NCBI GenBank assembly: GCA_016932555.1
Contig: JAFGCQ010000016.1
Coordinates: forward strand, 1 to 57,943
Origin: Candidatus Zambryskiibacteriota bacterium
GTDB lineage: Bacteria > Patescibacteriota > Minisyncoccia > Phycocordibacterales > WO2-35-19
Length of the DNA: 57,943 nt
Direction: 5' to 3'
This document shows positions 12,653 to 45,964 of this stretch, one piece after another; positions within the stretch are counted from its first letter, which is position 1, and the number at the start of each line of letters is the position of its first letter. The position numbers were made by a program, and so were the translations under genes. The notes beneath the pieces were generated by a model. It did not search any database and was not told where the DNA came from. It was given only the letters and a program-made list of their open reading frames with translations.

Positions 12653-14851
12653 TTACGGGTTTCTTCCAGCCCTGATTTCATTTATATAATATTCTCCTTG
12701 TTCTTTAAAATTTGGATCCAAAGCTATAATATGTTCCAAGGTTTGGATAGCTTCTTCTCTTCTACCAGCTTCCAAATAAGTGGCTGTCAGAGTTATATAA
12801 TGTTGTAAATTAGAAGGTTCAAGTTCAATTCTTTTTTTAGCTATCTCTATTATTTCTGAATACTGACCAAGATTTAAGAGAAGACTAATGTATCTATCGT
12901 CAAAAATCAATTTTCTTTCTGGCATTTCACCTAAAATTTGATTAGCAAGATCAAAACTGCCAGATGCCGCTAAAGCTAATCCGTAAATAAATTTAGCTTC
13001 TTCATAAGAAGTATCTGATTCATAAGCCTCTTTGGCTATTTCAACCGCTTTAGAAATTTGGTTGTCCAAAATTAAATTATTTACTAATTCAAAATATATC
13101 TGTTGTTTCTTTGGAGAAAGTTCCCGCGCTATTTCTAATTGCTCCACTGCTCGTCCGTACCAACCATAGCGAGATAAAAAGATAGCGTAAAAAAGTCTGT
13201 AACGAGCATCATTTGGCACTCTAGCAAGATGTTTTTCAAAAGCCTGCTCCACTACAGCAAATAATTCCTGTTTTAATTCCGGATTAACACTAGGACTAGC
13301 AGACAAACCTATAACTATCTGCGAAACATGTTCTAAACTTTCCGAAAAACCCATACCACTAGAAAGCGGCTTCTGATATTCTTCAATCGTACCCACCTTA
13401 CCCTCACTGTTCAATTTGAGAACATACAGCAAATCTTTGTTTTGCCCGTAAGGCTTATATATAACGAAATAAGAGACAGCTACCAATAAAATCAAAACTA
13501 CAGCTTCAATAATGGGCTTAGCTTTTTCATTATCAAATAATTTACCGGCTCCTTCAGATATCTTGTTCCAAAAATGGTTCCCGACACTTGAAGCAGACGA
13601 ATGAATCAGAGCCAAAATGGTAAAGAATAATATATAGCTCGAAATTTGATCAAAAACAAAAAGATTATTGAATACATAAGCAGTCGCTAGCCCCAAAATA
13701 ACCGCTTTGCCTTTTTTGTCTATAATATTTTCATCCGCTTTAAACAAGTAATAAAAAAGAAAAAACAATAAACCCAGATAAGATAGGAGTCCCAAGGTGC
13801 CACCGGCCACCAACCAATCTAGAGGTGTACTGTGAGCTCGATCAAACCAAGGTTCCTGCTTATAAGCCTCTGGATCATAGTATTTATTGAAAACAAAATT
13901 AAAACTTTCCTGTCCCCATCCCAAAATCGGTTTTTCAATAAAGCCCTTTATAGCCATTGGCCAGACATAGTAACGCCCCTGAGTTTTAATTTCTGAAAGC
14001 GAAAGAGAGGCGAAGCGGCTCAAGACTGAATTCTCTTTTACAAAAGTAGTATTTCTAATAGAAGCAAATAAGCCTATAAAAATTAAAACGGTTATCGTGC
14101 CGGCAATAGCGATTTTTCTGATCCTGTCGCCCTTTTGAGACTTGAACAAAAGATAGATGAAAGTTACTAATATTCCGCCAATTAGACCTAGGATAGCACC
14201 TCTAGTAGCAGTAAAATAAAGAACAATTAAATCCATTAGAGCAACTATCCCAAGCAAAATTTTTTGCCAATTAGATTTTGATCTAGTGAACAAAAAGGTC
14301 GCAAAGAAAATATGAAAAACCATATAAATAGCCAGATAGCCAGCATTGCCTAAGGTACCATCAACTCTAGTACTACCTTGATTGATAGTAATTTTACCAG
14401 TTAGTTGCAGGAAGCCATAAAAAGCCATGATTGCTGAAGCTCCAACACTGGTAGCCAAAAGTCGATTCCAAAGATTATGAATTTTAAAAACCGAACTCAA
14501 CACTACAAAATACGCCACTAAATGCAAAAGTGTGATATAACCTTCCATTCTTTCAAAATTGCTCCAAAAACTTTTGAATGGATTTTCACTGAAAATATCC
14601 GCTAGGCCAATCACGGCCAAAAACAAAATTAAAGAACCAATTATCCAAGAAAAATGTGGCCGATATGATTTGTCTCGCAAAACCAAAATCAGATAACAGG
14701 CAAAAATAATTTCTATTATAAGTCTAAAAACAAAAGCTTTACCGGTAATAAAGGGGAAAAATGATGACGAGGCCACCACAAAAGGAATAAATGGTATGGT
14801 AAAAATGCCGAAGAGTATCGTATACTTTAAATAATTATTTGACATTGACAT
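12653..14851 (-). CDS. O-antigen ligase/polymerase-like (Wzy_C) membrane protein fused to C-terminal TPR repeats
   Basis: The ORF track gives 12653..14881 from a TTG; the first ATG is at 14851 ('MSMSNNYLKY'). About 10-12 TM helices with 'TATRGAILGLIGG' (Wzy_C-like). The C-terminal ~230 aa are TPR-like ('RAVEQLEIARELSPKK', 'EEAIQTLEHIIALDPNF'). Confidence 0.7.
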   Translation of the reverse strand: MSMSNNYLKYTILFGIFTIPFIPFVVASSSFFPFITGKAFVFRLIIEIIFACYLILVLRDKSYRPHFSWIIGSLILFLAVIGLADIFSENPFKSFWSNFERMEGYITLLHLVAYFVVLSSVFKIHNLWNRLLATSVGASAIMAFYGFLQLTGKITINQGSTRVDGTLGNAGYLAIYMVFHIFFATFLFTRSKSNWQKILLGIVALMDLIVLYFTATRGAILGLIGGILVTFIYLLFKSQKGDRIRKIAIAGTITVLIFIGLFASIRNTTFVKENSVLSRFASLSLSEIKTQGRYYVWPMAIKGFIEKPILGWGQESFNFVFNKYYDPEAYKQEPWFDRAHSTPLDWLVAGGTLGLLSYLGLLFFLFYYLFKADENIIDKKGKAVILGLATAYVFNNLFVFDQISSYILFFTILALIHSSASSVGNHFWNKISEGAGKLFDNEKAKPIIEAVVLILLVAVSYFVIYKPYGQNKDLLYVLKLNSEGKVGTIEEYQKPLSSGMGFSESLEHVSQIVIGLSASPSVNPELKQELFAVVEQAFEKHLARVPNDARYRLFYAIFLSRYGWYGRAVEQLEIARELSPKKQQIYFELVNNLILDNQISKAVEIAKEAYESDTSYEEAKFIYGLALAASGSFDLANQILGEMPERKLIFDDRYISLLLNLGQYSEIIEIAKKRIELEPSNLQHYITLTATYLEAGRREEAIQTLEHIIALDPNFKEQGEYYINEIRAGRNP

Positions 14852-14928
14852 TAATATATCAAAAATAAGGATAAAAAACAAAGATAGAAAAAAGTCTTTA
14901 TTTCTGGTATTATTTTAAAGTTTATTAT

Positions 14929-16176
14929 ATGGAAAAATTAAAAAATAAGATTATTTTACTGTTACACTGGAGTGAAAAATACACCAAAACCGATATGGTC
15001 TATCTGGTAAAAGGTGGTTCTTGGCTGGGATTGGGACAAATTGTTTCTACTGCAGCCGCTTTTTTTACTTCCGTAGCCTTTGCTAACCTTCTACCCCCAG
15101 AAACATATGGAGTTTATAAATATGTGCTTTCTATAACTGGAATTCTTCTGGTAACAACTCTTTTGGGTATGGATTTGGCTGTGATCCAGTCCACCGCTAG
15201 AGGATTTGGGGGCACTTTGATTACTGGGGTTAAAAAAAGAATGAAATGGGGGACTTTGGGAACTATTATCTCCCTTTTAATCGCAGGTTATTATTATTTT
15301 CAAGGTAATACGGAACTAGCTCTAGCTTTCTGTATTGTTTCCGTTTTCATGCCTTTCAGCGAGAGTTTTGATATGTACAACGCTTTTCTTACTGGTAAAA
15401 AACTGTTCGGGTCTCAAACTAGATACAACATTGTTCGCAAAGTGGTTTCTTTAATTGCTATTGTTGGAACTTTATTCGTCACTCAAAATATCCTCGTGGT
15501 ATTGCTAGTATATTTCATTGCCTTAACTATACCTGCAGGCTTTTTTCTGTGGCAAACAGTAAAAAAGCATCTGTTCAACAGAAAAAACGATCCCAAAGCA
15601 GTAAATTATGGAAAGCATTTGAGTGTGGTTTACGTGATTGGTTTGTTACTTGGAGAATTAGATAAGATTTTAGTTTTCCATTATTTAGGTGCGATTAATT
15701 TGGCTGTCTATGCTCTAGCGGTCGCTCCCACCGACCAGATTAAGGGTATCTTGAAAAACGTAAATGCTTTAGCCATGCCCCGTTTCTCAAATCGAACACC
15801 AGAAGAAATCAGAAGAACATTGTGGCACAAAGTCTTAATACTTGCTCTAGTTATAACAATTATGGTTTTGGGTTATATTTTTCTAGCCCCAATATTCTTT
15901 AAGATATTCTTTCCTAAATATCTAACATCAATACCATATTCTCAGATATTATCTATATCGTTAATACCAGCAGTCCTATCTAGTTTTATTTATACTATTT
16001 TGGAGGCCCAAAAAGACAAGGCGGGTATATATAAATACAACATCTATTTCAACACTTTTGGTATTGTTATTTTAATTCCTCTTATCTATTTCTTCGGCAT
16101 CTGGGGCGCTGTAATTTCTCGTATTATTGGAAGATTTTTCTCTTTAGGTTTATCTATTATTTTACTAAAGAGATAA
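14929..16176 (+). CDS. Wzx-like oligosaccharide flippase (MOP/polysaccharide biosynthesis protein family)
   Basis: 415-aa polytopic ORF. The N-terminal pattern 'GGSWLGLGQIVSTAAAFFTSVAFANLLPPETYGVYKY' is typical of Wzx/RfbX-type flippases. Confidence 0.7.
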   Translation: MEKLKNKIILLLHWSEKYTKTDMVYLVKGGSWLGLGQIVSTAAAFFTSVAFANLLPPETYGVYKYVLSITGILLVTTLLGMDLAVIQSTARGFGGTLITGVKKRMKWGTLGTIISLLIAGYYYFQGNTELALAFCIVSVFMPFSESFDMYNAFLTGKKLFGSQTRYNIVRKVVSLIAIVGTLFVTQNILVVLLVYFIALTIPAGFFLWQTVKKHLFNRKNDPKAVNYGKHLSVVYVIGLLLGELDKILVFHYLGAINLAVYALAVAPTDQIKGILKNVNALAMPRFSNRTPEEIRRTLWHKVLILALVITIMVLGYIFLAPIFFKIFFPKYLTSIPYSQILSISLIPAVLSSFIYTILEAQKDKAGIYKYNIYFNTFGIVILIPLIYFFGIWGAVISRIIGRFFSLGLSIILLKR

Positions 16177-16184: not shown

Positions 16185-16925
16185 TTAATTTGAGTTCTTA
16201 TATAAAGCCAAGATATGTTTATATGATTTTTTGTTACCATTAGCGCAGAACTTAAAATAAAACTTAAATAACGCTTTACGTAAAAAAGATATTGATGCAA
16301 ATCTACGAATTAATTTATTTAAAACAACCCCAAGAAAATTATTTTTGATCAAATAAAAGATTTTAATTAATTTTAAACCATTTAGTTGCTTATTTAGTAA
16401 TTCCTCATCATAATGTCTATAATGCTTATCAATTATTGGTATTTGTTTAGAAGGTACAGAAATAATAAGAATACCTCCTTTTTTAATTTTGCTTTTTATA
16501 TCTAAAACAAACTCATTTATATTTTCATTTGGTATATGCTCCAAGACTTCAATTAAAAGAACTGCATCAAATTGCCCTTTTAAATCAGAAATTGGCTTAC
16601 AGAAAAATTCAACATTATTTCCGTAATTCAACCCCTTAGCCAACAGAATAGCTCTCTCTGATAAATCGACTCCTACATTTTTAATTTGATTACCATATAA
16701 TTTTGCTAATTCAAAATTTACCTTACCGTCTCCACAACCAACATCAAGAACGGATTCTGGACTATATTTCTTTAATAGATCGAGTGCTTTTTGAATATAA
16801 ACATAATATTCCTCTCCCCAAGGCATAATCCATACATTTGAAAAATTTTGAAAATTAACAAGATGATGATATGGAATAGAATATTGATAATTCTGAATAT
16901 CGAATTTTTCTTGTTTTTCGTTCAT
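16185..16925 (-). CDS. Class I SAM-dependent methyltransferase
   Basis: Motif I 'VLDVGCGDGK', and post-I/II 'AVLLIEVLEHIP'. Confidence 0.8.
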   Translation of the reverse strand: MNEKQEKFDIQNYQYSIPYHHLVNFQNFSNVWIMPWGEEYYVYIQKALDLLKKYSPESVLDVGCGDGKVNFELAKLYGNQIKNVGVDLSERAILLAKGLNYGNNVEFFCKPISDLKGQFDAVLLIEVLEHIPNENINEFVLDIKSKIKKGGILIISVPSKQIPIIDKHYRHYDEELLNKQLNGLKLIKIFYLIKNNFLGVVLNKLIRRFASISFLRKALFKFYFKFCANGNKKSYKHILALYKNSN

Positions 16926-16930
16926 AGACT

Positions 16931-17617
16931 TTATTTCTTCTTAGCAAAAAGATAGTAACCTGTATTGATTATAGAACCATCTATTTTGATAGTTTTTTTA
17001 ATATTTCCATATTCTTCAATAATAAGAAAATTTGCATGATTAAAGATCCAAGCTAAAAAAAGTAAAAGTAATTTAGAAATTTTATTTAAATGTAAAGACG
17101 TTTGAAAAACTATACGCTGTATTAAAACACCTATAGCGGAAAAAGTTTCCGTTTCAGGTTTCAATTCAATTATTTCCCAATCTTCAAATAGTTTTTTCAT
17201 CCCAAACAAAGTAAAACGAAAATAATCATGCGGAATATCATGCATTGGATATATAAATCTTGTGGTTAAAATCAGTTTACCACCTTTTTTTAAAACTCTT
17301 TTCATTTCATTTATCGCCACTTTTGGTTCATCAATATGTTCAAGAACTTCTGTACATAAAATCATTTCAAACTCCTCATCTCTAAATGGTAGTTTTTTTG
17401 CATCTGCCACAATATCCGGTTTTCTATTTGGATCAATATCGACAGCAATACGATTTGGGAAAAATTTATCATATCCAGAACCTCCTGAGCCAATATCTAA
17501 AACTCTTTTATCAGATGCATGATTTTTTAAAAATTTTTCTAGATTTCTTCTAGTTATTTTTTGAAACATAGATTTTGTTTTATAATAGAAAGGATATTTT
17601 CTGATCTTTTTTGCCAA
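16931..17617 (-). CDS. Class I SAM-dependent methyltransferase (Methyltransf_11-like)
   Basis: 'VLDIGSGGSG', 'ILCTEVLEHIDEP' and 'LKKGGKLILTT'. The track start is TTG; an ATG alternative lies at 17569. Confidence 0.8.
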   Translation of the reverse strand: MAKKIRKYPFYYKTKSMFQKITRRNLEKFLKNHASDKRVLDIGSGGSGYDKFFPNRIAVDIDPNRKPDIVADAKKLPFRDEEFEMILCTEVLEHIDEPKVAINEMKRVLKKGGKLILTTRFIYPMHDIPHDYFRFTLFGMKKLFEDWEIIELKPETETFSAIGVLIQRIVFQTSLHLNKISKLLLLFLAWIFNHANFLIIEEYGNIKKTIKIDGSIINTGYYLFAKKK

Positions 17618-18705
17618 GAATATTTTTGAACCTTTTGATAAGCGTTTTCAGCCATTTTAACTGCTAAAGCTTCATTTGACAATATTTTGTTTATAGCAGT
17701 AGCAAAAGAGATCGAGTCGTCAGATTTCGCAAATACACATTCTTCCTCGCTAACTACCTCTCTCATGGAAGGCAAATCGGAGACTATAATTGGTCGTTTA
17801 ACAGCCATATATTCCAAAAGTTTCAGAGGCGAGGTAAAATAAGCAGAAGTTTGACTTTTAGCCGAATTCGGAGAAACTAGCACATCTGCCGCTTTAAGAT
17901 ATATAGGTATCATTTTTCTTTCAACGAAAGGAATGACTTTTATGTTTTTAACATCGTTATATTTAGTATTAAAAATACCAAGCTCTGGCTCTGTGCCACC
18001 TATAAAAACAAAAAGATGTTCTGGCAATAATTTTGCTGTTTCCGCTAAGGTGTCTATTCCTTTCCAACCGTAAAATTGACCGCTATATAAAATTATTTTT
18101 TTATCCAAAGGTAAATTTACTTTCTCTCTAGATTTATTTTGACTTACATCAATATCAAAATCATCAATATCAACACCACTTGGAGATATGTAAATTTTTC
18201 TTTTATCAACACCAAATTTTATTAACTCACTTTTCAAATTTTCGTTTAAGACAAAAAATAATTTTGGCTTTTTTATCGCTTTTTTAAACAAAAAAGAGAA
18301 TTTTGGTATTTCATGCAATTCCAGACAAATAAATTTATTTTTGGAAAACAACAACAATATTTTATAATCACGAGTATATATAACATTATCTGATCCAATC
18401 AATTTTTTCTGCTTAAAGAAAAAAGAAATGAAAAAAGAGATAAAATCAATAGGATAAAAAAGTTTGCTAAATTTTGTTGTTTTACCAATTAAATCTAAGG
18501 AATTTATTTTGGTAATAGTGAAATTTTTATCCAACCCGTAATATGAAAACGGCTCATATTCTGTTTCTTCATTCTTCTTGTTCGGCACTATTAATTCAAC
18601 GTCCGTTCCAGTCCTACTAAACTCTTCGCACATTTTCATAATAGCGTAACCGTGCGCTCGAGAAGTTGGTATTCTTACATTCGTAATGTATTTTAGTTTC
18701 AACAC
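17554..18705 (-). CDS. Glycosyltransferase family 4 (GT-B)
   Basis: 383-aa ORF (GTG start). N-terminal 'YITNVRIPTSRAHG', and C-terminal 'SPLKLLEYMAVKRPIIVSD' (EX7E-like region). Confidence 0.8.
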   Translation of the reverse strand: MLKLKYITNVRIPTSRAHGYAIMKMCEEFSRTGTDVELIVPNKKNEETEYEPFSYYGLDKNFTITKINSLDLIGKTTKFSKLFYPIDFISFFISFFFKQKKLIGSDNVIYTRDYKILLLFSKNKFICLELHEIPKFSFLFKKAIKKPKLFFVLNENLKSELIKFGVDKRKIYISPSGVDIDDFDIDVSQNKSREKVNLPLDKKIILYSGQFYGWKGIDTLAETAKLLPEHLFVFIGGTEPELGIFNTKYNDVKNIKVIPFVERKMIPIYLKAADVLVSPNSAKSQTSAYFTSPLKLLEYMAVKRPIIVSDLPSMREVVSEEECVFAKSDDSISFATAINKILSNEALAVKMAENAYQKVQKYSWQKRSENILSIIKQNLCFKK

Positions 18706-23652: not shown

Positions 23653-23748
23653 CAATTTTTCTCCTTTTTTATCTATAATTTCCAAAGATCACTCCACTGA
23701 CAGAATAAACCTAAAATCATAATAAATCAATACCTATGAAATGCCCCA

Positions 23749-29188: not shown

Positions 29189-29191
29189 GTT

Positions 29192-40628: not shown

Positions 40629-40816
40629 TCTATTTTTATAGCTTTAACTGGGCAATTGTCAATAATCTTCTTTACTTCTTCTATATCTTCTAAAGACAAA
40701 TCGCCTACAATTTCAGCTTTGAAGCTATCTTGATTGATTTTAAATAAATTTGGATTACAATTTTCACAAAAACCGCATCCTATACATTTTTCTTGATCTA
40801 TTGATATTTTTTTCAT
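40625..40816 (-). CDS. Small single-cluster [4Fe-4S]/[3Fe-4S] ferredoxin
   Basis: 63 aa. 'CIGCGFCENC' plus the distal 'CPVKAI'. Confidence 0.8.
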   Translation of the reverse strand: MKKISIDQEKCIGCGFCENCNPNLFKINQDSFKAEIVGDLSLEDIEEVKKIIDNCPVKAIKIE

Positions 40817-40825: not shown

Positions 40826-41947
40826 CTAACTTATTCTATTAATAATGTCAGCTAAAGATTTTTTATAAAATTCTAGATACTTTTCGTGATTTGGTAGAGT
40901 ATTAACTGATTGTTTAGCTTTTTCTCCCAATTTTTTAGCTAAATCTTTATTATTCAAAAATTTTTTAATAGCTTCCACCAAAGATTTTCTATCATCAACT
41001 TTAATTATTAAACCATTTTCTTTATTTTTTATAAACTCTCCAGCACAGCCTACATCGGTCATTATTATCGGGCAACCACAAGCAGCGGCTTCAATCACCG
41101 TCATTCCCCAACCTTCATAATTTGAAGTTAAAAGAAATATATCCGAAGTTTTATAATAAGAGGCCAAATCTGAAGACCAAGGTTCAAAAATAATATTAGA
41201 GTATAAATTAAAATTTCTTACCAAATCTTTCAAATTATTTTTTTCTTTCCCTTCACCAACAATAATTAGTCCGGTTTTAGGATTGTTTTTTATAATATAA
41301 GTCATTGATTTTATAGCTAAATCAATATTTTTTTCCTGACTAATCCGCGAAGCCATCAAAATTATCGATCCAAATTGAGGATATTTTTGCTTGAGATTAA
41401 TTTTCAATTCTGCAGATTTAAATTTCTCAACATCGATAAATATTGGCAAAATTACTGGATTACAATTCAATTTAATTTTGGATAAAGATTTTTTTATCCT
41501 CTCAGACACTACCCTAATACCATCTGCTTGGGGTAAAAGAAATTTAGAAACTAAAACTCTAATTTTATTAGAAAAAGATTCTTTCCAATAATAAGAACTG
41601 AATAAATCTCCATGAATTTGACATTGCCAAGGCAGTTTATATTTTCTTTTTATGAGCCAGCCTATGTGTCCAGTATCGGCTGGATCTTGAGTTATAACTA
41701 AATCATGTTTCTCTTTTTTTATGATTTCTCTAACTAATTTTAAAGCGTCTCGAGTATAGGTTAATCGACTGTTTGAAGCTGTAGCGAAAATGCCTAATTT
41801 TCCAAAAATTATCGGCTTAAAATGTTTCCTAGTCAAAACTATTACTGATAATTTGTCACAAAATCCTGTATACTCTTTCAACCTCTCTAAACTTGCCGAA
41901 TTCGGCTCAAAAATACCCTTATCCAGATTTACTATTAAAATTTTCAT
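40826..41947 (-). CDS. Glycosyltransferase family 4 (GT-B)
   Basis: 373 aa. 'TSNYEGWGMTVIEAAACGCPIIMTDVG' (EX7E region). Confidence 0.8.
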   Translation of the reverse strand: MKILIVNLDKGIFEPNSASLERLKEYTGFCDKLSVIVLTRKHFKPIIFGKLGIFATASNSRLTYTRDALKLVREIIKKEKHDLVITQDPADTGHIGWLIKRKYKLPWQCQIHGDLFSSYYWKESFSNKIRVLVSKFLLPQADGIRVVSERIKKSLSKIKLNCNPVILPIFIDVEKFKSAELKINLKQKYPQFGSIILMASRISQEKNIDLAIKSMTYIIKNNPKTGLIIVGEGKEKNNLKDLVRNFNLYSNIIFEPWSSDLASYYKTSDIFLLTSNYEGWGMTVIEAAACGCPIIMTDVGCAGEFIKNKENGLIIKVDDRKSLVEAIKKFLNNKDLAKKLGEKAKQSVNTLPNHEKYLEFYKKSLADIINRIS

Positions 41948-43380
41948 TTACTTTTCACTAAATTATAAATTCTTCTTAAAATTCTGCCAGTCCAATTTTT
42001 TTCTTCGATAGCTATCCCCGAAAGCCATTCAATGAGATAAATATCAAAAGGTAGAGCAAAAAATCTATGTTGAATACGCCATTCAAACCATTTATTAATT
42101 GGTCCCAATTTAAATTTTAATAATTTAAAATATTCGCGAATCCGCCAAACTTTTTCTCCATTAACCCAAGGAGAAGAAAAATCTCTTCGAAAACGATCAA
42201 TTTTGCCCCAATCTTCAGTTCTCTCGGGTGGCACAAAACCATGCTGGCAAGCAAATTCATACATCGTCGAACCCGGATAAGGCATATAAGCACCAAAAGT
42301 AATGGCTGATTCTGGATGAAGTTTATAAATTTTGTAAAAAAGATCAATAGTAGATTCGAATTCTATTTTAGTTTCTGTCGGCAAACCAACAATAGCTGAG
42401 TAACTAGCAGGTATATTATATTTTGCCAAAATTCTAACGGTTTTAATAATTTGCTCTACAGTAATCTTCTTATTGATTAGTTTTAAAATTCTGTCGCTAC
42501 CAGATTCCACGCCAATCAAAATATCAAAAACTTTATTGGTTTTAAATTCTTTAGCTAGTTTATCATCGATCATATCTATTCTAGCCTCTAAATGAGCTGG
42601 TAATTTAATACGCCTTAAAATTTCTAATGCTCTATCACGACTAACCATGAAATTATCGTCATAAAATTTAATGGCATCAATTTTATATTTGCTTTTTAAA
42701 AATTCTATATCTTTAACTACTTGTTCTATTGACCAAGCTCGCCAACGATTCTTGTTAAAAATCCGATTGTAACAAAAAGCGCAATTAAAGGGACACCCTC
42801 GACTAGTTTTGTAAGCAATTACTCTTTTGTATTTATCTAACTTATAAATAAATTTCTCTAAATCCAGAAGTGAAAAATCTAGAGTCCACTCATCAAGATT
42901 CTTAATAAATGGTCGGGCCGGATTTATTTTGGAATTGTTCATTTCTTTGTAACCTAAACCTAAAACTTCATTTAAAGGTTCTTTATTCTTTAATTTTCTA
43001 GAAAATTCAATTACCGTTTCTTCCCCTTCCCCAATAATTACAAAATCAATATAATTCTCAGACAAGCACTGTTCTGGCAGAAGCGAAGGATGAATACCGC
43101 CCCAGACAATTTTAATATTTGAATAAGATTTAATTTTTTTAGACAACTCTGCGCTGTACAAAGTTTGGCGACCAGTCATAACTGAAAGTCCCACGTAGAG
43201 CGGTTTTTTATTTGCAACCACTTTAGCTGTTTTCTCTATCTCTTTTTCAGTGATATTTATAAGTTCTACCTCAAAATTATTCTTTTTCAAGGCGCTACCA
43301 ATTGATAAGATACCTAGCGGTAAAATCTTTTCAGAATGATCCTCAGAATCATTTATTTGCACTAATATGATTTCACTCAT
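41944..43380 (-). CDS. B12-binding-domain radical SAM protein (class B rSAM), paralog 4
   Basis: 478 aa. 'ILPLGILSIGSALKKNNFEVELIN' and 'SRGCPFNCAFCY'. ATGA overlaps on both sides. Confidence 0.85.
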   Translation of the reverse strand: MSEIILVQINDSEDHSEKILPLGILSIGSALKKNNFEVELINITEKEIEKTAKVVANKKPLYVGLSVMTGRQTLYSAELSKKIKSYSNIKIVWGGIHPSLLPEQCLSENYIDFVIIGEGEETVIEFSRKLKNKEPLNEVLGLGYKEMNNSKINPARPFIKNLDEWTLDFSLLDLEKFIYKLDKYKRVIAYKTSRGCPFNCAFCYNRIFNKNRWRAWSIEQVVKDIEFLKSKYKIDAIKFYDDNFMVSRDRALEILRRIKLPAHLEARIDMIDDKLAKEFKTNKVFDILIGVESGSDRILKLINKKITVEQIIKTVRILAKYNIPASYSAIVGLPTETKIEFESTIDLFYKIYKLHPESAITFGAYMPYPGSTMYEFACQHGFVPPERTEDWGKIDRFRRDFSSPWVNGEKVWRIREYFKLLKFKLGPINKWFEWRIQHRFFALPFDIYLIEWLSGIAIEEKNWTGRILRRIYNLVKSK

Positions 43381-44795
43381 TTATTAAAAATAAAGAATTT
43401 ATAAAGTAAAAAATTTTGAATCATTACAAAAAAACCAGCTAGAATTTGCGAAAAAATATACCAAATACCAACAAGATCCGTGAAAACATATATAAGAATA
43501 GTGTTAGTAATCGTACCCAAAATCAAAGCTACTGTAAATTTTGAAAATTGATAATGCAATTTAGCAGTAATCATATCTTTAAAAACTACAAACTTCTGTA
43601 AAGTAAAACTTACGATAAGAGAAATAATAAAAGCCATGATTGAGGAATAAAGATACCAAATACCAACTATATCTGTCAGCAAATAAAGAACTAGGATATT
43701 TAATCCAGCTGAAGTGATACCGCATAGAAAATAGCGCAAAAATATAAAAGAATGCCAAAGATTCTTTATTATATTCGAATTTGCAATATCCGGTAAAGCT
43801 TTAAAAACTCTCACAAATTCTTCGGCTATATTATTCCAAGTGTGTTCAAAATTAAATTTGTTGATTTTTTCTTTAGCATTTTGATAACCTTCAGCTGACA
43901 TCATTTCTTCCATAGCGCTAACAATTTCATTTTCATCTAGCGGATTGACAAAAATACCAGCATCTTTTATGCGATCATAAATACCGACTTCTTTGGTGCA
44001 GATAAAAGACTTATTAAACCTAATAGCATCCAAAATCATATTGGGACTGATATCTCCTAAAGAGACTAGAATTACTGCATAACAAGATTTAATTCTTTCC
44101 ATAAACTTTTGAAAGGGTTCATTTTCTAAAAACAAATTAATATCTGGATATTTTGATTTTATTTTTTCAAAAACTTTTTGCAGAGTATCCAAATTTTTCC
44201 AAACTAAATTTCTCGTAGAACCCACAAATTCTTTTGAAGTCAAATTATTTATGTTTTCTTTGGGACCGTAATAATTTTCAATTATTAAAGTATTATCCAA
44301 GTTCAAATTATAAGGCTTCGCGAAAATATCTCTCTGCCATTCAGTAGAAAATACTAGTCTTAAAGAATTATTCAATGTCCATTTAGTTAATTTAAAAATT
44401 ATTTTTTCCTTTAGTGAAAAATTAGGGATTTCAGTTTGATAAAAATTTCTTAGTAATACTTTTTTCTTAGTTCTTTCCACATACCCTTCATACAAAAAAT
44501 CTCCCCCAGTTCTTAAAACACATTTTTTGTTTAAAAGTTTACAAGCAAAAACCGTCGGCAAGCCAACACTAAAATTATCTAATGTTAATACGAAATCAAC
44601 AGCTAGCACAGAAAAAATAATTTTCAAAAAGAAAAATCCATGCCTTATGCCAGTTGGTAGCTTATTTTCTATGTCATAAGTCTTTACGCAAACTTCATGA
44701 CCTAAATTCTCAAATTCTTTCTTTAAATTTTTAGCATACTGGGCTGGGCCGCCGATTTGAGGTGGATATATACCTGTAGTAATTAAAATTCTCAT
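43377..44795 (-). CDS. GT4 glycosyltransferase fused to a C-terminal GtrA-like 4-TM domain
   Basis: N-terminal 'MRILITTGIYPPQIGGPAQYAKNL'. The last ~130 aa ('FLRYFLCGITSAGLNILVLYLLTDIVGIWY...LQKFVVFKD...LYKFFIFN') match the GtrA-family pattern. Confidence 0.7.
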   Translation of the reverse strand: MRILITTGIYPPQIGGPAQYAKNLKKEFENLGHEVCVKTYDIENKLPTGIRHGFFFLKIIFSVLAVDFVLTLDNFSVGLPTVFACKLLNKKCVLRTGGDFLYEGYVERTKKKVLLRNFYQTEIPNFSLKEKIIFKLTKWTLNNSLRLVFSTEWQRDIFAKPYNLNLDNTLIIENYYGPKENINNLTSKEFVGSTRNLVWKNLDTLQKVFEKIKSKYPDINLFLENEPFQKFMERIKSCYAVILVSLGDISPNMILDAIRFNKSFICTKEVGIYDRIKDAGIFVNPLDENEIVSAMEEMMSAEGYQNAKEKINKFNFEHTWNNIAEEFVRVFKALPDIANSNIIKNLWHSFIFLRYFLCGITSAGLNILVLYLLTDIVGIWYLYSSIMAFIISLIVSFTLQKFVVFKDMITAKLHYQFSKFTVALILGTITNTILIYVFTDLVGIWYIFSQILAGFFVMIQNFLLYKFFIFNK

Positions 44796-45964
44796 TTAGT
44801 GTGTGCTAGCATAATTACGTTCTCCATTTGTTTAGCGATTAAATCCCAATTATATTTTTCAGTAACCATTTTTTTGGCATTTTCTACAATTTTATCTTTA
44901 TTTGGATCATTTATGATTTTTTTTACTACTTTCACAATGCTTTCTGGATTTTTTGGCTCACAAAAATAACCTGTTGCCACTTGTTCTAAGTTATCCGGAG
45001 AATCTTTCAAAAAATCAATTATTCCGCCAACAGGTGTACCTATCACTGGAATACCAGCTGCCATAGCTTCTATAAAAGAATTACCCATACCCTCTGAAAG
45101 AGAAGGCCTTATAAAAATATCACAAGCTTTTAAATATTTTGGTATATCATCAAAAGAAACCAGTCCCAAAAATGTAACTCTCTTTGAAACTTTTAAATTT
45201 CGAGCTAATTTTTTAAGTTTTTTTTCTAATTCTCCTGTCCCCAAAATTATAAATTTTATATTTTCTGACAATTTAGGTAGAGCTTTTATCACATCCTCTA
45301 CTCCATTTTTCATGTTTAGACGTGAGGTAGTAATAAGAGCAATATCTTTCTCTTCTAATTCTAACTCCTTTCTTATTTTTTCCCTTAATTCATAACTCAT
45401 GCTTCTTAATTCAAACTTTTCTATATTTACTCCATTTGGGATTATTTTTACCTCTTTCTTATATCCTAATCTTTTCGTTCTTTCTGCCAAATAAGAACTT
45501 ATTGCAGTTACAACGATTGATCTTTTAAGAGCTAATCGCCAAGATAAGTCAATAAGTCCCAGCCATTTAGTTTTCAAATATTTTTCAGAATCACCTTCTT
45601 GTAAAGTTAGAATTATTGGAGTTTTTCTACCTAAAATATTTGCAATATAAGCAGCGCCGCTAGCCCAACTCACCATCATGCACCAGTAATTCATATAATC
45701 ATTTTTAGCATTCAAGCGTAGAGCATAAAAAGCTCCCCAAAAAGGCAAAAGTAATTTATCGATTATTGGAATACCAAACCCCATTCTATAGACGCTCACA
45801 TTTCCTATGTTTTCAAATTTTGGTAAATCAGGTCTCAATCTGGCAGTTATCATGTCAAATCCAACATCAGAGATTTTATTTGTAATCTCTTTTATAGCCA
45901 CCTCTGCTCCGCCCACAAACGGCAAATAAGCGGTGGAAAATATGAGCATTTTTTTATTATCCAC
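44792..45964 (-). CDS. Glycosyltransferase family 4 (GT-B)
   Basis: 390 aa (GTG at 45964; ATG alternative at 45949). 'LIFSTAYLPFVGGAEVA' and 'PSLSEGMGNSFIEAMAAGIPVIGTPVGG'. Confidence 0.8.
   Translation of the reverse strand: MDNKKMLIFSTAYLPFVGGAEVAIKEITNKISDVGFDMITARLRPDLPKFENIGNVSVYRMGFGIPIIDKLLLPFWGAFYALRLNAKNDYMNYWCMMVSWASGAAYIANILGRKTPIILTLQEGDSEKYLKTKWLGLIDLSWRLALKRSIVVTAISSYLAERTKRLGYKKEVKIIPNGVNIEKFELRSMSYELREKIRKELELEEKDIALITTSRLNMKNGVEDVIKALPKLSENIKFIILGTGELEKKLKKLARNLKVSKRVTFLGLVSFDDIPKYLKACDIFIRPSLSEGMGNSFIEAMAAGIPVIGTPVGGIIDFLKDSPDNLEQVATGYFCEPKNPESIVKVVKKIINDPNKDKIVENAKKMVTEKYNWDLIAKQMENVIMLAHTK

What the first reader, a model, noticed from the sequence alone, without database searches (positions are those of the whole stretch)
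12653..45964. 33-kb envelope-glycan island with four paralogous B12-domain radical SAM enzymes embedded among lipid-carrier glycosyltransferases
Seen: from 12.6 to 46 kb nearly every ORF is glycan-related. The set is 6 GT4, 2 GT2 of polyprenyl-phosphate-sugar-synthase type, 3 candidate GT-C/ArnT-like membrane proteins, an O-antigen-ligase::TPR fusion, 2 DegT aminotransferases, 2 SDR epimerase/dehydratases, a UDP-Glc-dehydrogenase-like protein, 5 class I SAM methyltransferases, a GNAT, three flippase candidates (Wzx-, GtrA- and LPG-synthase-TM-like) and a 63-aa ferredoxin. Four ORFs (22402..23685, 29551..30981, 35409..36821, 41944..43380) share one architecture. Each has an N-terminal 'P(L/F)GL.Y(I/L)' cobalamin-type domain followed by a CxxxCxxC motif (CPYKCGFC, CPFNCSFC, CPFSCTYC, CPFNCAFC). 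Most genes are chained by 1-8 nt start/stop overlaps. Established: class B radical SAM enzymes such as Fom3, GenK, HpnP/HpnR, BchE and OxsB act on unactivated carbons, mostly by C-methylation. Inference: four of them in one surface-glycan locus lies outside the canonical O-antigen, capsule and teichoic-acid toolkits. It predicts a heavily methylated or otherwise radical-tailored lipid-linked glycan. It would also make envelope biogenesis depend on scavenged cobalamin and a low-potential reductant. I know of no characterised pathway with this gene set.
Basis: partly seen in the sequence, partly recalled or inferred. Interest (0 to 1): 0.8.

Follow-up and report, generated by a model that had tools for sequence, protein, structure and literature searches.

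The report
Radical-SAM enzymes inside surface-sugar assembly genes
A tiny groundwater-type bacterium (Parcubacteria) carries a 33-kb block of cell-surface sugar genes in which four radical enzymes each follow a sugar-transferring gene, and because these pairings recur in other ultra-small bacteria and archaea, they point to an uncharacterised way of chemically editing surface sugars.

Summary
Pfam finds B12-binding (PF02310) and Radical_SAM (PF04055) domains above threshold in all four ORFs, and the rest of the gene inventory is essentially as listed.

The four enzymes are only about 25% identical to each other. Three (rSAM1, rSAM3, rSAM4) have 60-80% identical orthologues in database searches, across Patescibacteria for rSAM3 and rSAM4. 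rSAM2 has 50-61% identical relatives in unnamed metagenome contigs. None reaches the cut-off of any characterised family.

Three gene arrangements recur elsewhere:
- GT2b→rSAM3→GT-C occurs in Parcubacteria, Omnitrophota and DPANN archaea, once beside AglB/STT3.
- SDR→DegT→GT2a→rSAM2→flippase-like protein, with a nearby GT-C, occurs in about 20 metagenome loci.
- GtrA-containing protein→rSAM4→GT4 occurs in several Patescibacteria.

Best reading: this is a chromosomal, variable surface-glycan locus. Its "three-component" modules (polyprenyl-phosphate-sugar synthase, flippase, GT-C) contain a cytoplasmic radical SAM enzyme that probably edits the carrier-linked or nucleotide-linked sugar.

The chemistry is unresolved. 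It could be C-methylation, deoxygenation or ring contraction. Cobalamin use is also unproven, because the closest solved fold, AprD4, binds no cobalamin.

I found no paper describing this arrangement. I rate it a new variant of known kinds. It is widespread, not unique to this window.

The parts
12653..14881 (-). Wzy_C (O-antigen ligase/polymerase family) membrane protein fused to C-terminal TPR repeats
   Evidence: Pfam Wzy_C 74.5 bits and TPR_19/TPR_14. About 13 hydrophobic segments.
14929..16176 (+). Wzx-type (MOP) flippase
   Evidence: Pfam Polysacc_synt 61.4 bits. 9 hydrophobic segments.
16185..17617 (-). Two class I SAM methyltransferases (16185-16925 and 16931-17617)
   Evidence: Pfam Methyltransf_23/11/25.
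17554..18705 (-). GT4 glycosyltransferase (GT4a)
   Evidence: Pfam Glycos_transf_1 85.5 bits.
18715..19704 (-). SDR-type NDP-sugar dehydratase/epimerase (SDR1)
   Evidence: Pfam GDP_Man_Dehyd and Epimerase. Best NCBIfam match is dTDP-glucose 4,6-dehydratase, below cut-off.
19707..20651 (-). Nucleotide-sugar dehydrogenase-like protein lacking the C-terminal domain
   Evidence: Pfam UDPG_MGDP_dh central and N domains only. NCBIfam NDP-sugDHase 117 bits, below the 189.8 cut-off. The same truncated form sits next to an SDR in L084 and L119.
20692..21273 (-). Class I SAM methyltransferase (MT3)
   Evidence: Pfam Methyltransf_11 73.4 bits.
21239..22336 (-). DegT-family sugar aminotransferase (DegT1)
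   Evidence: Pfam DegT_DnrJ_EryC1 320.6 bits.
22402..23685 (-). rSAM1: B12-binding-domain radical SAM enzyme, directly downstream of GT4b (likely true start near 23652)
   Evidence: PF02310 52.9 bits and PF04055 83.2 bits. Orthologues are 60-67% identical, including in Woesearchaeota. The order GT4-rSAM1-DegT is repeated in L118, and L117 has Wzx-rSAM1-SDR.
23749..25026 (-). GT4 glycosyltransferase (GT4b)
   Evidence: Pfam Glycos_transf_1 114 bits.
25225..25911 (+). HD-domain protein of unknown role, co-directional with GT-C1
   Evidence: Pfam HD 21.7 bits, just under the 22 cut-off.
25915..27573 (+). GT-C1: PMT_2-type polyprenyl-phosphate-sugar-dependent glycosyltransferase, convergent with the rSAM2 module
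   Evidence: Pfam PMT_2 36.8 bits. 8 hydrophobic segments. A convergent GT-C after the flippase-like gene recurs in L088, L090, L092, L094, L099, L103, L107 and L110.
27567..28508 (-). Flippase-like membrane protein (LPG_synthase_TM family)
   Evidence: Pfam 164.4 bits. NCBIfam TIGR00374 flippase-like domain 91.3 bits, above the 43.2 cut-off.
28505..29554 (-). Class I methyltransferase MT4 (28505-29188) and GNAT acetyltransferase (29192-29554)
   Evidence: Pfam. MT4 and GNAT homologues follow rSAM2 in L088 and L092.
29551..30981 (-). rSAM2: B12-binding-domain radical SAM enzyme, 1-nt overlap with upstream GT2a
   Evidence: PF02310 86.1 bits and PF04055 97.7 bits. Best NCBIfam match is HpnJ, 227 bits over the full length, below the 577.6 cut-off. 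Relatives 50-61% identical sit in the same SDR-DegT-GT2-rSAM-flippase module.
30981..31895 (-). GT2a: ArnC/GtrB/AglJ-like polyprenyl-phosphate sugar synthase with two C-terminal TM helices
   Evidence: Pfam Glycos_transf_2. Best NCBIfam matches are AglJ, PpgS, Dol-P-hexose transferase and ArnC, all below cut-off. Hydrophobic segments at 251-297.
31888..34010 (-). DegT2 aminotransferase (31888-33015) and SDR2 dehydratase/epimerase (33015-34010), which make the amino-sugar donor of the rSAM2 module
   Evidence: Pfam DegT 415 bits and Epimerase 145.8 bits. Co-linear with GT2a-rSAM2 in most L088-L110 loci long enough to show it.
34053..35402 (-). GT-C2: PMT_2-type glycosyltransferase directly downstream of rSAM3
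   Evidence: Pfam PMT_2 50.4 bits and PMT 29.9 bits. 11 hydrophobic segments. A PMT_2 gene follows the rSAM3 orthologue in L084 and L087 and lies close by in L001 and L003, but these GT-Cs are not mutual orthologues.
35409..36821 (-). rSAM3: B12-binding-domain radical SAM enzyme, 1-nt overlap with upstream GT2b
   Evidence: PF02310 68.9 bits and PF04055 104.9 bits. Orthologues are 60-80% identical across Parcubacteria and about 50% in DPANN archaea. AF2 model pLDDT 89.6. Top folds are AprD4, MgmA/QCMT, TsrM, OxsB, CysS and TokK.
36821..37537 (-). GT2b: short soluble GT2 of Dol-P/polyprenyl-P hexose synthase type, the conserved partner of rSAM3
   Evidence: Pfam Glycos_transf_2 129.4 bits. Best NCBIfam matches are AglJ and ArnC, with PpgS and Dol-P-hexose transferase also matched, all below cut-off. 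Orthologues 62-73% identical lie immediately upstream of rSAM3 orthologues in L001, L084 and L087, and 47-49% identical ones in Omnitrophota L005 and L007.
37553..38653 (-). GT-C3: short PMT_2-type membrane glycosyltransferase
   Evidence: Pfam PMT_2 39.9 bits. A 53% identical orthologue holds the same position in L084.
38655..39515 (-). Class I SAM methyltransferase (MT5)
   Evidence: Pfam Methyltransf_11 51.5 bits.
39570..40628 (-). GT4 glycosyltransferase (GT4c)
   Evidence: Pfam Glycos_transf_1 73.1 bits.
40625..40816 (-). 63-aa single-[4Fe-4S]/[3Fe-4S]-type ferredoxin, a candidate electron donor for the radical SAM clusters
   Evidence: Pfam Fer4_13 45 bits and Fer4_15 40.8 bits. Sequence CIGCGFCENC...CP. 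L001 has a ferredoxin with an FNR-like reductase and NifS-NifU beside the rSAM3 orthologue.
40826..41947 (-). GT4 glycosyltransferase (GT4d), conserved downstream partner of rSAM4
   Evidence: Pfam Glycos_transf_1 146.8 bits. A 51% identical orthologue follows the rSAM4 orthologue in L087, and GT4 genes follow it in L119 and L120.
41944..43380 (-). rSAM4: B12-binding-domain radical SAM enzyme, 4-nt overlaps on both sides
   Evidence: PF02310 70.5 bits and PF04055 95.4 bits. Orthologues are 62-77% identical across Patescibacteria. 5 of the top 120 are fusions to a class I methyltransferase.
43377..44795 (-). Diverged GT4-like domain fused to a C-terminal GtrA/DPMS transmembrane domain
   Evidence: Pfam GtrA_DPMS_TM 64.7 bits at residues 354-470. 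Weak GT4 hits in the N-terminal part. Homologues in L084 and L119 carry clear GT4 plus GtrA domains.
44792..45964 (-). GT4 glycosyltransferase (GT4e), first gene of the long minus-strand array
   Evidence: Pfam Glycos_transf_1 137.3 bits. 63% identical orthologue in L084.
51714..54245 (.). Outside the given coordinates: Bac_transf phosphoglycosyl transferase (51714-53051, -) and GT4f (53073-54245, +), a probable initiating enzyme of the same glycan system
   Evidence: Pfam Bac_transf 182 bits and Glycos_transf_1 139.3 bits. Bac_transf lies directly upstream of the SDR-DegT-GT2-rSAM2 module in L088, L093, L094 and L098.

Best explanation
**What it is.** This is a chromosomal, gene-content-variable surface-glycan locus of a Parcubacteria (CPR/Patescibacteria) bacterium.

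**Backbone (inferred from family content).** An oligosaccharide is built on a polyprenyl-diphosphate carrier. The initiating enzyme is the Bac_transf protein at 51.7 kb, and the GT4 enzymes extend the chain. Wzx flips the product, and the Wzy_C::TPR protein polymerises or ligates it.

**Decoration modules (shown by domain content and conserved gene order).** On top of the backbone sit several 'three-component' modules. In each, a carrier-charging glycosyltransferase puts one sugar on polyprenyl phosphate. Here that enzyme is GT2a, GT2b or the GT4-like::GtrA fusion. A flippase-like protein (LPG_synthase_TM or GtrA) moves the charged carrier outward. A PMT_2-type GT-C enzyme then transfers the sugar to the glycan or protein outside the membrane.

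**The new element (position shown, function inferred).** A soluble, cytoplasmic radical SAM enzyme with a B12-binding-type domain is encoded immediately after the charging glycosyltransferase. I infer that each rSAM edits the sugar while it is still cytoplasmic. For rSAM2, rSAM3 and rSAM4 the most likely substrate is the polyprenyl-phosphate-linked monosaccharide. This is the step that ArnD occupies in the Arn pathway and DprE1/E2 in arabinan synthesis. For rSAM1 the substrate may instead be the NDP-amino-sugar.

**How the enzyme would work (inferred).** The [4Fe-4S] cluster is reduced through the co-encoded ferredoxin. It cleaves SAM to a 5'-deoxyadenosyl radical, which abstracts a sugar hydrogen atom.

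**Possible outcomes, my estimates:**
- C-methylation through methylcobalamin (about 40%)
- AprD4-like dehydration/deoxygenation (about 25%)
- HpnJ/Cds-like ring contraction (about 15%)
- other chemistry (about 20%)

The five class I methyltransferases and the GNAT add O- or N-methyl and acetyl groups.
For: **Domains and localisation.**
- Both domains are above threshold in all four ORFs.
- No TM segments are predicted in any rSAM, so they are cytoplasmic.
- GT2a and GT2b have polyprenyl/dolichyl-phosphate sugar synthases (AglJ, PpgS, Dol-P-hexose transferase, ArnC) as best NCBIfam matches. GT2a has the two C-terminal TM helices of ArnC/GtrB.
- The flippase-like protein and the three GT-C genes pass their thresholds.

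**Position.** Each of the four rSAM genes directly follows a GT gene (p about 0.004).

**Conserved gene order.**
- GT2b→rSAM3 abut or overlap in Parcubacteria L001, L084-86 and L087, with a PMT_2 GT-C next.
- The same pair is present in Omnitrophota L005 and L007 and in Nanoarchaeia L015.
- It also occurs in a Diapherotrites archaeon (L003), in L122 and in an archaeal locus L123 beside Alg13/14, AglH and STT3/AglB.
- A GT2b-type gene lies within two genes in 7 of 8 distinct loci whose rSAM3 relative is at least 50% identical. The exception is L121.
- SDR2→DegT2→GT2a→rSAM2 holds in all 19 informative metagenome loci for the GT2a adjacency. Most also have the flippase-like gene and a convergent GT-C.
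- GtrA-containing protein→(rSAM)→rSAM4→GT4 is seen in L087, L119, L120 and L074.
- GT4→rSAM1→DegT is seen in a Woesearchaeote.

**Donor conserved, transferase variable.** The GT2b-rSAM3 pair is conserved at 62-79% identity, while the adjacent GT-C varies. This is what is expected if a conserved donor is passed to different acceptors.

**Electron supply.** A ferredoxin lies in the island. NifS-NifU, an FNR-like reductase and a ferredoxin lie beside the rSAM3 orthologue in L001.

**Cobalamin-type N-domain.** The N-terminal domains align in sequence to proven cobalamin binders (TokK, CysS, OxsB, MgmA). AprD4 aligns only from the radical SAM core onward.

**Precedents for radical SAM editing of lipid-linked or pseudo-oligosaccharide sugars.**
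- HpnJ with the GT2 enzyme HpnI, and calditol synthase Cds (PMC13459092)
- MoeK5, GenK and Fms7 (PMC9204698)
- AprD4

**Precedent for three-component systems with carrier-level sugar conversion:** PMC11127046.
Against: - There is no biochemical evidence. The substrate assignment rests on gene order alone.
- Gene order cannot separate action on NDP-sugars from action on polyprenyl-phosphate sugars, or on the polyprenyl chain itself.
- Synteny is not universal. A 67% identical rSAM3 orthologue in a Portnoybacterium lies among housekeeping genes (L121).
- Several relatives at 41-48% identity outside CPR/DPANN have no adjacent GT. They sit next to CrtI-like flavin oxidoreductases (in L006, a nanoarchaeon, and L009) or a Pyr_redox-ferredoxin protein.
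- Among 63 non-CPR relatives, only 22 have a GT2 gene within three genes.
- The closest solved fold (AprD4) does not bind cobalamin (PMC12931638).
- The window holds no cobalamin riboswitch and no B12 transport gene.
- The GT2 assignments to the polyprenyl-phosphate class are below the NCBIfam cut-offs.
Confidence: 0.55

Rival explanations
1. The radical SAM enzymes tailor soluble nucleotide sugars before any transfer to lipid. In this view they are extra members of the NDP-sugar toolkit, alongside the SDR and DegT enzymes. They would make C-methyl, deoxy or epimerised NDP-sugars that the GT2 and GT4 enzymes then use.
For: rSAM1 is flanked by DegT, and its orthologues sit with DegT or SDR genes. 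rSAM2 is co-linear with SDR2-DegT2. The closest solved relative, AprD4, acts on a free pseudo-disaccharide.
Against: The minimal conserved unit for rSAM3 is GT2b-rSAM3(-GT-C), with no NDP-sugar enzyme attached. In all modules the rSAM gene comes after the carrier-charging GT, not before it.
Confidence: 0.22
2. The enzymes modify the isoprenoid part of the substrate. The target could be the polyprenyl/dolichyl carrier or another membrane lipid, and the chemistry methylation, cyclisation or cross-linking. Known lipid-modifying examples are HpnP/HpnR, the ladderane-associated enzyme and the GDGT-modifying radical SAM enzymes.
For: The proteins match the ladderane-lipid radical SAM family (rSAM2, 175 bits) and HpnR, both below cut-off. 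rSAM3 relatives in a nanoarchaeon and an Aminicenantes bacterium sit next to CrtI-like flavin oxidoreductases, which typically act on isoprenoids. Many lipid-modifying radical SAM enzymes are now known (PMC13459092).
Against: The window and its close relatives contain no lipid-synthesis genes. They contain dense sugar-activation, GT, flippase and GT-C genes. One archaeal homologue sits in an AglB/Alg13/Alg14/AglH cluster. All scores to lipid-modifying families are far below their cut-offs.
Confidence: 0.1
3. The proteins are cobalamin-independent despite the Pfam B12-binding hit. They would act like AprD4, as sugar 1,2-diol dehydratases that form deoxy sugars together with one of the SDR reductases. 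Envelope synthesis would then carry no B12 requirement. This rival concerns the chemistry and the cofactor, not the pathway context.
For: AprD4 is the best PDB match for rSAM2 and rSAM3 by sequence (E = 6e-23 and 1.9e-28). For rSAM3 it is also the best by fold over the whole length (TM 0.75/0.78). AprD4 does not bind cobalamin (PMC12931638). CPR genomes are generally poor in cofactor synthesis (general knowledge). No B12-related gene or riboswitch is in the window.
Against: The sequence similarity to AprD4 is confined to the radical SAM core. The N-terminal domains align to the cobalamin domains of TokK, CysS, OxsB and MgmA. NCBIfam AprD4 scores are 62-112 bits against a cut-off of 500, and lower than the scores to BchE, HpnJ and the P-methylase families, which cover the N-terminal domain.
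Confidence: 0.25
4. The enzymes modify a protein or peptide, for example an S-layer or pilin protein. They would resemble the peptide-modifying class B enzymes such as MgmA/QCMT, PoyC or Mmp10, and their location in a glycan locus would be incidental.
For: MgmA/QCMT is the closest solved relative that aligns beyond the radical SAM core, and the second-best fold match.
Against: Pfam searches of the neighbouring ORFs of at least 100 aa found no RiPP-type partner; precursor peptides were not specifically searched for. The score to the MgmA family is 137.7 bits against a cut-off of 360. The GT adjacency is conserved across phyla and domains.
Confidence: 0.04

Closest known systems
Three-component extracytoplasmic glycosylation systems (GtrA/GtrB/GtrC type; ArnC-ArnE/F-ArnT; pentofuranose systems of PMC11127046; from my own knowledge, archaeal AglD/AglR/AglS)
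   Same: A GT2 polyprenyl-phosphate sugar synthase, a small flippase (here GtrA or a flippase-like LPG_synthase_TM protein) and a GT-C transferase are encoded together. In the Arn and arabinofuranose systems the sugar is also chemically converted while on the carrier.
   Different: The carrier-level converting enzyme here is a radical SAM protein with a B12-binding-type domain. In the known systems it is a deformylase (ArnD) or an oxidoreductase pair (DprE1/E2). None of the genes reaches the NCBIfam cut-offs for ArnB, ArnC or AglJ.
HpnI-HpnK-HpnJ (hopanoid cyclitol ether synthesis) and calditol synthase Cds
   Same: A GT2 enzyme puts a hexosamine or hexose on a lipid, and a radical SAM enzyme then rearranges that lipid-linked sugar (PMC13459092, PMC9204698). 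HpnJ is the best-scoring NCBIfam family for rSAM1 and rSAM2.
   Different: Scores are 131-227 bits against a cut-off of 577.6. The window has no hopanoid or tetraether genes. The lipid here is presumably a polyprenyl-phosphate carrier whose sugar is passed on by a GT-C enzyme, not a final membrane lipid.
Class B radical SAM sugar C-methyltransferases of natural-product pathways: MoeK5 (moenomycin phosphoglycolipid), GenK/GenD1 (gentamicin), Fms7 (fortimicin)
   Same: Same two-domain architecture. They C-methylate unactivated sugar carbons, and for MoeK5 the sugar is on a lipid-phosphate-linked saccharide. MoeK5 co-clusters with HpnJ and Fom3 in similarity networks (PMC9204698).
   Different: Those enzymes act in antibiotic biosynthesis in actinomycetes. 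The enzymes here sit in primary cell-surface glycan loci of CPR, DPANN and Omnitrophota. No orthology is shown.
AprD4 (with AprD3), radical SAM 1,2-diol dehydratase of apramycin biosynthesis
   Same: Best PDB match of rSAM2 and rSAM3 by sequence, and of rSAM3 by predicted fold. Its substrate is an amino-sugar. SDR reductases are available in the island as possible AprD3-like partners.
   Different: The NCBIfam AprD4 model scores 62-112 bits against a cut-off of 500 and covers only the radical SAM core. AprD4's N-terminal domain binds no cobalamin, whereas the N-terminal domains here resemble true cobalamin domains in sequence.
Wzx/Wzy-dependent O-antigen, capsule or S-layer-glycan loci
   Same: Wzx, a Wzy_C-family protein, a Bac_transf initiating transferase, GT4 enzymes, NDP-sugar enzymes and methyltransferases are present. 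Gene content varies between close relatives.
   Different: There are four radical SAM enzymes and three GT-C enzymes. No chain-length regulator was found in the window. The host is a CPR bacterium with no known outer membrane (general knowledge), so the acceptor is unknown.

Membership tests
Class B (cobalamin-dependent) radical SAM enzymes | Radical SAM core with a CxxxCxxC motif (PF04055) | tested here: met
   83-105 bits against a cut-off of 29.5 in all four ORFs. The motifs are visible in the alignment.
Class B (cobalamin-dependent) radical SAM enzymes | N-terminal Rossmann-type B12-binding domain (PF02310) | tested here: met
   52.9-86.1 bits against a cut-off of 32.1. The AF2 model of rSAM3 shows a five-stranded alpha/beta domain at residues 5-117. 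The N-terminal domains align to TokK, CysS, OxsB and MgmA.
Class B (cobalamin-dependent) radical SAM enzymes | Actual binding and use of cobalamin | not testable with these tools
   There is no sequence signature for base-off/His-off binding. AprD4 and ArsL carry related domains without cobalamin (PMC12931638). No B12 riboswitch or transporter is in the window.
Characterised class B subfamilies (HpnJ, BchE, HpnP/R, PhpK, MgmA, BzaD, TsrM-type, KedN5, ApyD, ladderane-associated) | Score at or above the curated NCBIfam cut-off | tested here: not met
   Best scores are HpnJ 227.5 against 577.6, BchE 196.7 against 481.35, ladderane-associated 175.3 against 360, and MgmA 137.7 against 360.
AprD4-type radical SAM diol dehydratase | Score at or above the NCBIfam rSAM_AprD4 cut-off over the full length | tested here: not met
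   61.9-112.4 bits against a cut-off of 500, matching only model positions from about 143 onward. The fold similarity is nevertheless the highest found.
Three-component polyprenyl-phosphate-sugar glycosylation system | GT2 polyprenyl-phosphate sugar synthase | tested here: inconclusive
   The best matches are AglJ, PpgS, Dol-P-hexose transferase and ArnC, but all are below cut-off. GT2a has ArnC/GtrB-like C-terminal TM helices.
Three-component polyprenyl-phosphate-sugar glycosylation system | Small flippase (GtrA or equivalent) | tested here: met
   GtrA_DPMS_TM 64.7 bits. LPG_synthase_TM 164.4 bits, and TIGR00374 flippase-like domain above its cut-off. Flipping activity itself was not tested.
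Three-component polyprenyl-phosphate-sugar glycosylation system | GT-C fold transferase | tested here: met
   PMT_2 at 36.8, 50.4 and 39.9 bits against a cut-off of 26.1, with 8-11 hydrophobic segments.
Arn (L-Ara4N) pathway | ArnA, ArnB, ArnC, ArnD and ArnT equivalogs | tested here: not met
   ArnB model 281.5 bits against 631. ArnC model 73 against 529. ArnA model about 30-74 against 777. No deformylase is present. The module works like Arn in gene logic only.
Wzx/Wzy-dependent polysaccharide pathway | Initiating phosphoglycosyl transferase, Wzx and a Wzy-family protein | tested here: met
   Bac_transf 182 bits. Polysacc_synt 61.4 bits and Wzy_C 74.5 bits.
Wzx/Wzy-dependent polysaccharide pathway | Chain-length regulator (Wzz/PCP) | tested here: not met
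   No Wzz-type hit among the ORFs of at least 100 aa that were searched, all but five short ones nested inside larger genes.

The most novel reading that the evidence does not exclude
A previously unrecognised and widespread enzyme layer exists in cell-surface glycosylation. In it, B12-type radical SAM enzymes edit polyprenyl- or dolichyl-phosphate-linked monosaccharides on the cytoplasmic face, before flipping and GT-C transfer. The products would be C-methyl, deoxy or carbocyclic sugars on the surfaces of ultra-small symbionts (CPR bacteria, DPANN archaea, Omnitrophota), including on archaeal N-glycans. In organisms that cannot make cobalamin, envelope decoration would then depend on B12 scavenged from hosts or neighbours.
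Probability: 0.35. Interest if true: 0.8.

Novelty: new variant of a known kind. Interest (0 to 1): 0.62.

Why it matters
**CPR and DPANN biology.** These organisms have tiny genomes and live attached to other cells, so their surfaces are central to how they live. Even so, this genome devotes four radical SAM genes to one glycan locus, and relatives carry at least 15 distinct families of them.

**If the enzymes edit carrier-linked sugars,** they would define a new step in the general logic of extracytoplasmic glycosylation. They would predict unusual sugars that could serve as biomarkers or as recognition determinants for hosts or phages. They would also add a large, conserved and experimentally tractable set of substrates to the class B radical SAM field, where most members have no known function.

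**If they really use cobalamin,** envelope decoration would be a concrete, testable metabolic dependency of these symbionts.

**The archaeal locus** that places the GT2-rSAM pair beside AglB suggests that the same chemistry may act in N-glycosylation.

Tried and rejected
- **Exact look-up.** The window's rSAM3 protein was not found in the assembly index. Context therefore had to come from homologues.
- **GTDB genome scan.** I used these loci as an outgroup sample only.
- **Mobile island.** I rejected this reading. There is no tRNA and no integrase. The only transposase-like ORF is 12 kb away, at 46-690. The flanks are SecA, SecDF, FtsW and rRNA genes. Relatives keep the same boundary gene, the TraD-like ATPase. 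GC is only slightly lower than in the flanks.
- **RiPP or peptide modification.** No RiPP-type partner gene turned up in the Pfam searches (precursor peptides were not specifically searched for), and the GT synteny is strong, so I gave this a low probability.
- **Cobalamin riboswitch or B12 genes in the window.** None was found. This is uninformative either way for a 58-kb fragment.
- **Fused methyltransferase.** I looked for a window orthologue of the methyltransferase domain fused to some rSAM4 orthologues. Only generic 25-35% matches appeared.
- **GT-C orthology.** I tested whether the GT-C next to rSAM3 is orthologous across loci. It is not, apart from L001 and L087.
- **Literature.** Searches found nothing that links B12-type radical SAM enzymes to CPR or DPANN glycan loci, O-antigen clusters or archaeal N-glycosylation. 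The library held is incomplete, so this is absence of evidence only.
- **Not used.** The search of protein representatives and a second structure prediction would not have separated the hypotheses.

Full report

The four ORFs at 22402-23685, 29551-30981, 35409-36821 and 41944-43380 are all on the minus strand. Each carries PF02310 B12-binding (52.9-86.1 bits, cut-off 32.1) followed by PF04055 Radical_SAM (83-105 bits, cut-off 29.5). The quoted CxxxCxxC motifs are correct.

The other genes are:
- five clear GT4 genes, plus a diverged GT4-like domain fused to GtrA (homologues with clear GT4 plus GtrA domains)
- two GT2 genes
- three PMT_2-type GT-C genes
- one Wzy_C::TPR fusion and one Wzx
- two DegT and two SDR genes
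- a nucleotide-sugar dehydrogenase-like protein lacking its C-terminal domain
- five class I methyltransferases and a GNAT
- a flippase-like LPG_synthase_TM protein
- a 63-aa single-cluster ferredoxin (Fer4_13, 45 bits)

Corrections are minor:
- The N-terminal motif is exact in only two of the four proteins.
- About 12 of 28 junctions overlap by 1-8 nt. The rest are short gaps.
- rSAM1 probably starts at Met12.
- The four proteins are only 25-26% identical to each other.

**2. Where does the window come from?**

The flanks encode GatB, SecA, SecDF, FtsW/RodA, a Bac_transf phosphoglycosyl transferase, 5S rRNA and the 3' end of 23S rRNA. The region is therefore chromosomal. It has no tRNA and no integrase.

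Homologues of rSAM3 and rSAM4 at 60-80% identity are, where named, from Parcubacteria, Patescibacteria, Pacebacteria, Tagabacteria, Portnoybacteria, Zambryskibacteria and Falkowbacteria. The organism is a CPR bacterium with about 33% GC.

**3. What are the four radical SAM proteins?**

They are not recent duplicates. Three of them have a well-conserved orthologous family in database searches, and the fourth has conserved relatives in metagenome contigs:
- rSAM3: 60-80% identity in CPR and about 50% in DPANN archaea
- rSAM1: 60-67%, including Woesearchaeota, Nanoarchaeota and Omnitrophica
- rSAM4: 62-77% across Patescibacteria
- rSAM2: 50-61% in 25 metagenome loci, which carry no organism names

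Clustering 55 such proteins from 32 CPR-type glycan loci at 45% identity gives 15 clusters. The window holds four of them.

None reaches any curated NCBIfam cut-off. The best scores are HpnJ 227 against 577.6, BchE 197 against 481, ladderane-associated 175 against 360, MgmA 138 against 360 and AprD4 112 against 500.

An AlphaFold model of rSAM3 built from 45 orthologues is confident (pLDDT 89.6, pTM 0.89). Its best PDB neighbours are:
- AprD4 (TM 0.75/0.78), a cobalamin-free sugar 1,2-diol dehydratase
- MgmA/QCMT
- TsrM
- OxsB
- CysS
- TokK

In sequence, AprD4 aligns only with the radical SAM core. The N-terminal domain aligns with the cobalamin domains of TokK, CysS, OxsB and MgmA. The architecture is therefore class B. 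Actual cobalamin use cannot be decided here, because the review PMC12931638 states that AprD4 and ArsL carry related domains without binding cobalamin.

**4. Context in the window.**

All four rSAM proteins lack predicted TM segments, so they are cytoplasmic.

Each rSAM gene is immediately downstream of a glycosyltransferase gene:
- GT4b→rSAM1
- GT2a→rSAM2
- GT2b→rSAM3
- GT4-like::GtrA→rSAM4

Shuffling the gene order reproduces this in 0.4% of trials.

GT2a and GT2b have polyprenyl/dolichyl-phosphate sugar synthases as their best matches (AglJ, PpgS, Dol-P-hexose transferase, ArnC), all below cut-off. GT2a has the two C-terminal TM helices typical of ArnC/GtrB.

The segment SDR2-DegT2-GT2a-rSAM2-GNAT-MT4-flippase-like, with the convergent GT-C1, has the logic of the Arn pathway. 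In that pathway an amino sugar is made as a nucleotide sugar, loaded on polyprenyl phosphate, modified on the carrier, flipped, and transferred by a GT-C enzyme. Here the rSAM gene sits where ArnD acts.

GT2b-rSAM3-GT-C2 is a minimal version of this module without any nucleotide-sugar enzymes.

**5. Is the context conserved?**

*rSAM3.*
- The GT2b orthologue (62-73% identical) abuts or overlaps the rSAM3 orthologue in Parcubacteria L001/L002, in Hainich groundwater contigs L084-86 and in a Pacebacterium L087. A PMT_2 GT-C comes next.
- The pair recurs in Omnitrophota (L005, L007), Nanoarchaeia (L015), a Diapherotrites archaeon (L003) and L122.
- In the archaeal locus L123 it is followed by Alg13/Alg14, AglH and STT3/AglB. 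That is an N-glycosylation cluster.
- The neighbouring GT-C genes are mostly not orthologous to each other. This fits a conserved donor passed to different acceptors.
- L001 also has NifS-NifU, an FNR-like reductase and a ferredoxin directly after the rSAM3 orthologue.

*rSAM2.*
- All 19 loci with upstream sequence have the GT2a orthologue just upstream, sometimes with one or two further rSAM genes in between. L092 and L094 were confirmed by tblastn.
- Most loci that extend far enough upstream have SDR2-DegT2 before it, and most that extend downstream have the flippase-like gene and a convergent GT-C after it.
- Several start with Bac_transf.

*rSAM4.* GtrA or GT4::GtrA→(rSAM)→rSAM4→GT4 is seen in L087, L119, L120 and L074. 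Five of the top 120 homologues are fusions to a class I methyltransferase.

*rSAM1.* GT4-GT4-rSAM1-DegT occurs in a Woesearchaeote (L118). Wzx-rSAM1-SDR, with methyltransferases, DegT, GT4 and another rSAM nearby, occurs in L117.

**6. Limits of the synteny.**

- A Portnoybacteria orthologue of rSAM3 (67% identical) lies among housekeeping genes (L121).
- Among non-CPR relatives from GTDB, GT2 is within three genes in 22 of 63 loci. Any glycan-family gene is within three genes in 32 of 63.
- Some relatives at 41-48% identity sit beside CrtI-like flavin oxidoreductases or a Pyr_redox-ferredoxin protein.
- Many distant relatives form tandem arrays of up to seven or more rSAM genes (L024, L057).

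The association is strong near the window's lineage, in DPANN and in Omnitrophota. It is not a property of the whole superfamily.

**7. Mechanism.**

*Shown:* domain architectures, cytoplasmic localisation, and a conserved order GT→rSAM→(flippase)→GT-C.

*Inferred:* the rSAM enzymes edit the sugar after it is loaded on the carrier. For rSAM1 the substrate may instead be the NDP-sugar. The ferredoxin would supply electrons. The edited sugar is then flipped and transferred outside the membrane to a Wzx/Wzy-built glycan or to protein.

*Chemistry:* open. C-methylation is favoured by the class B architecture and by precedents such as MoeK5, GenK and Fms7 (PMC9204698). Dehydration is favoured by the similarity to AprD4. 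Ring contraction is favoured by the similarity to HpnJ and by the HpnI(GT2)/HpnJ and Cds precedents (PMC13459092).

**8. Comparison with what is known, and novelty.**

Three-component glycosylation systems, the Arn pathway, Wzx/Wzy pathways and class B radical SAM sugar tailoring in antibiotic or hopanoid pathways are each known. The combination seen here is a B12-type radical SAM enzyme embedded between the carrier-charging GT and the GT-C in primary surface-glycan or N-glycosylation loci. I did not find it described in eight literature searches. It is also absent from two class B reviews (PMC9204698, PMC12931638), a lipid radical SAM review (PMC13459092) and a 2024 review of archaeal N-glycosylation.

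I classify it as a new variant of known kinds. It is widespread in CPR, DPANN and Omnitrophota metagenomes and is not a singular feature of this window.

**9. Verdict.**

- Observation: confirmed.
- Interpretation: partly supported. The glycan-tailoring context is well supported. Methylation and cobalamin dependence remain untested.
- Interest: 0.62.

Noticed in passing
window 46001-47665 (-): A TraD/TrwB-like coupling-protein ATPase (weak Pfam and NCBIfam hits) borders the glycan locus. A 66% identical homologue holds the same position next to the GT4e orthologue in Hainich groundwater contigs L084-86, so the neighbourhood is conserved. Its role is unknown.
   Followed up: partly
window 19707-20651 (-); L084 3875-4750; L119 445-1383: The nucleotide-sugar dehydrogenase-like protein lacks the C-terminal UDP-binding domain (about 290-314 aa). 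It is followed by an SDR in the window and in two relatives, which suggests a conserved two-gene cassette of unknown activity.
   Followed up: partly
proteins P0278, P0328, P0350, P0351, P0355; L119 8001-10196: Some rSAM4 orthologues are natural fusions to a C-terminal class I SAM methyltransferase (about 721-731 aa). This implies that the two enzymes act consecutively on one substrate. The window has no close orthologue of the fused methyltransferase.
   Followed up: partly
L123 6402-11392 (archaeal metagenome contig): In a DPANN-type archaeon, the GT2-rSAM3-like pair (with a second radical SAM gene) lies directly beside Alg13/Alg14-like genes, an AglH/Alg7-type GlcNAc-1-P transferase and STT3/AglB. 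This links the radical SAM family to N-glycosylation.
   Followed up: no
L001 11682-14281: NifS-like cysteine desulfurase, NifU, an FNR-like flavoprotein and a small ferredoxin are encoded immediately after the rSAM3 orthologue in a Parcubacterium. This looks like a dedicated Fe-S assembly and electron-supply set.
   Followed up: no
L024, L029, L037/L039, L053, L057 (GTDB loci): Distant relatives (about 30-35% identical) occur as tandem arrays of 5 to at least 7 B12-type radical SAM genes in Bathyarchaeota, Bacteroidales and unclassified bacteria. Some arrays are headed by a GT2 gene.
   Followed up: no
L006 11386-12633; L009 11539-12897; L013 6651-9890: rSAM3 relatives at 41-48% identity in a nanoarchaeon, an Aminicenantes bacterium and Scalindua sit beside CrtI-like flavin amine-oxidase-family proteins, or beside a Pyr_redox-ferredoxin fusion plus DUF547, and have no GT neighbour. 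These may reflect a different, possibly lipid-related, use of the family.
   Followed up: partly
window 46-690 (+): IS200/Y1-type transposase-like ORF at the left edge of the window, 12 kb from the glycan locus.
   Followed up: no
window 3188-7635 (-): A GH15 glucoamylase-like gene, a GH57 gene and a GT4/GT5 starch-synthase-like gene form a separate alpha-glucan (glycogen or trehalose-type) metabolism cluster that is not part of the surface-glycan locus.
   Followed up: no
window 57384-57943 (-): 5S rRNA and the 3' end of 23S rRNA lie at the right edge of the window. This confirms a chromosomal context.
   Followed up: yes
window 25023-25235 (-): A 70-aa ORF overlaps the start of the divergent HD-domain gene by 11 nt and has no family hit. 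It is probably spurious. That would leave about 200 nt (25027-25224) as a divergent promoter region between GT4b and the HD/GT-C1 pair.
   Followed up: no
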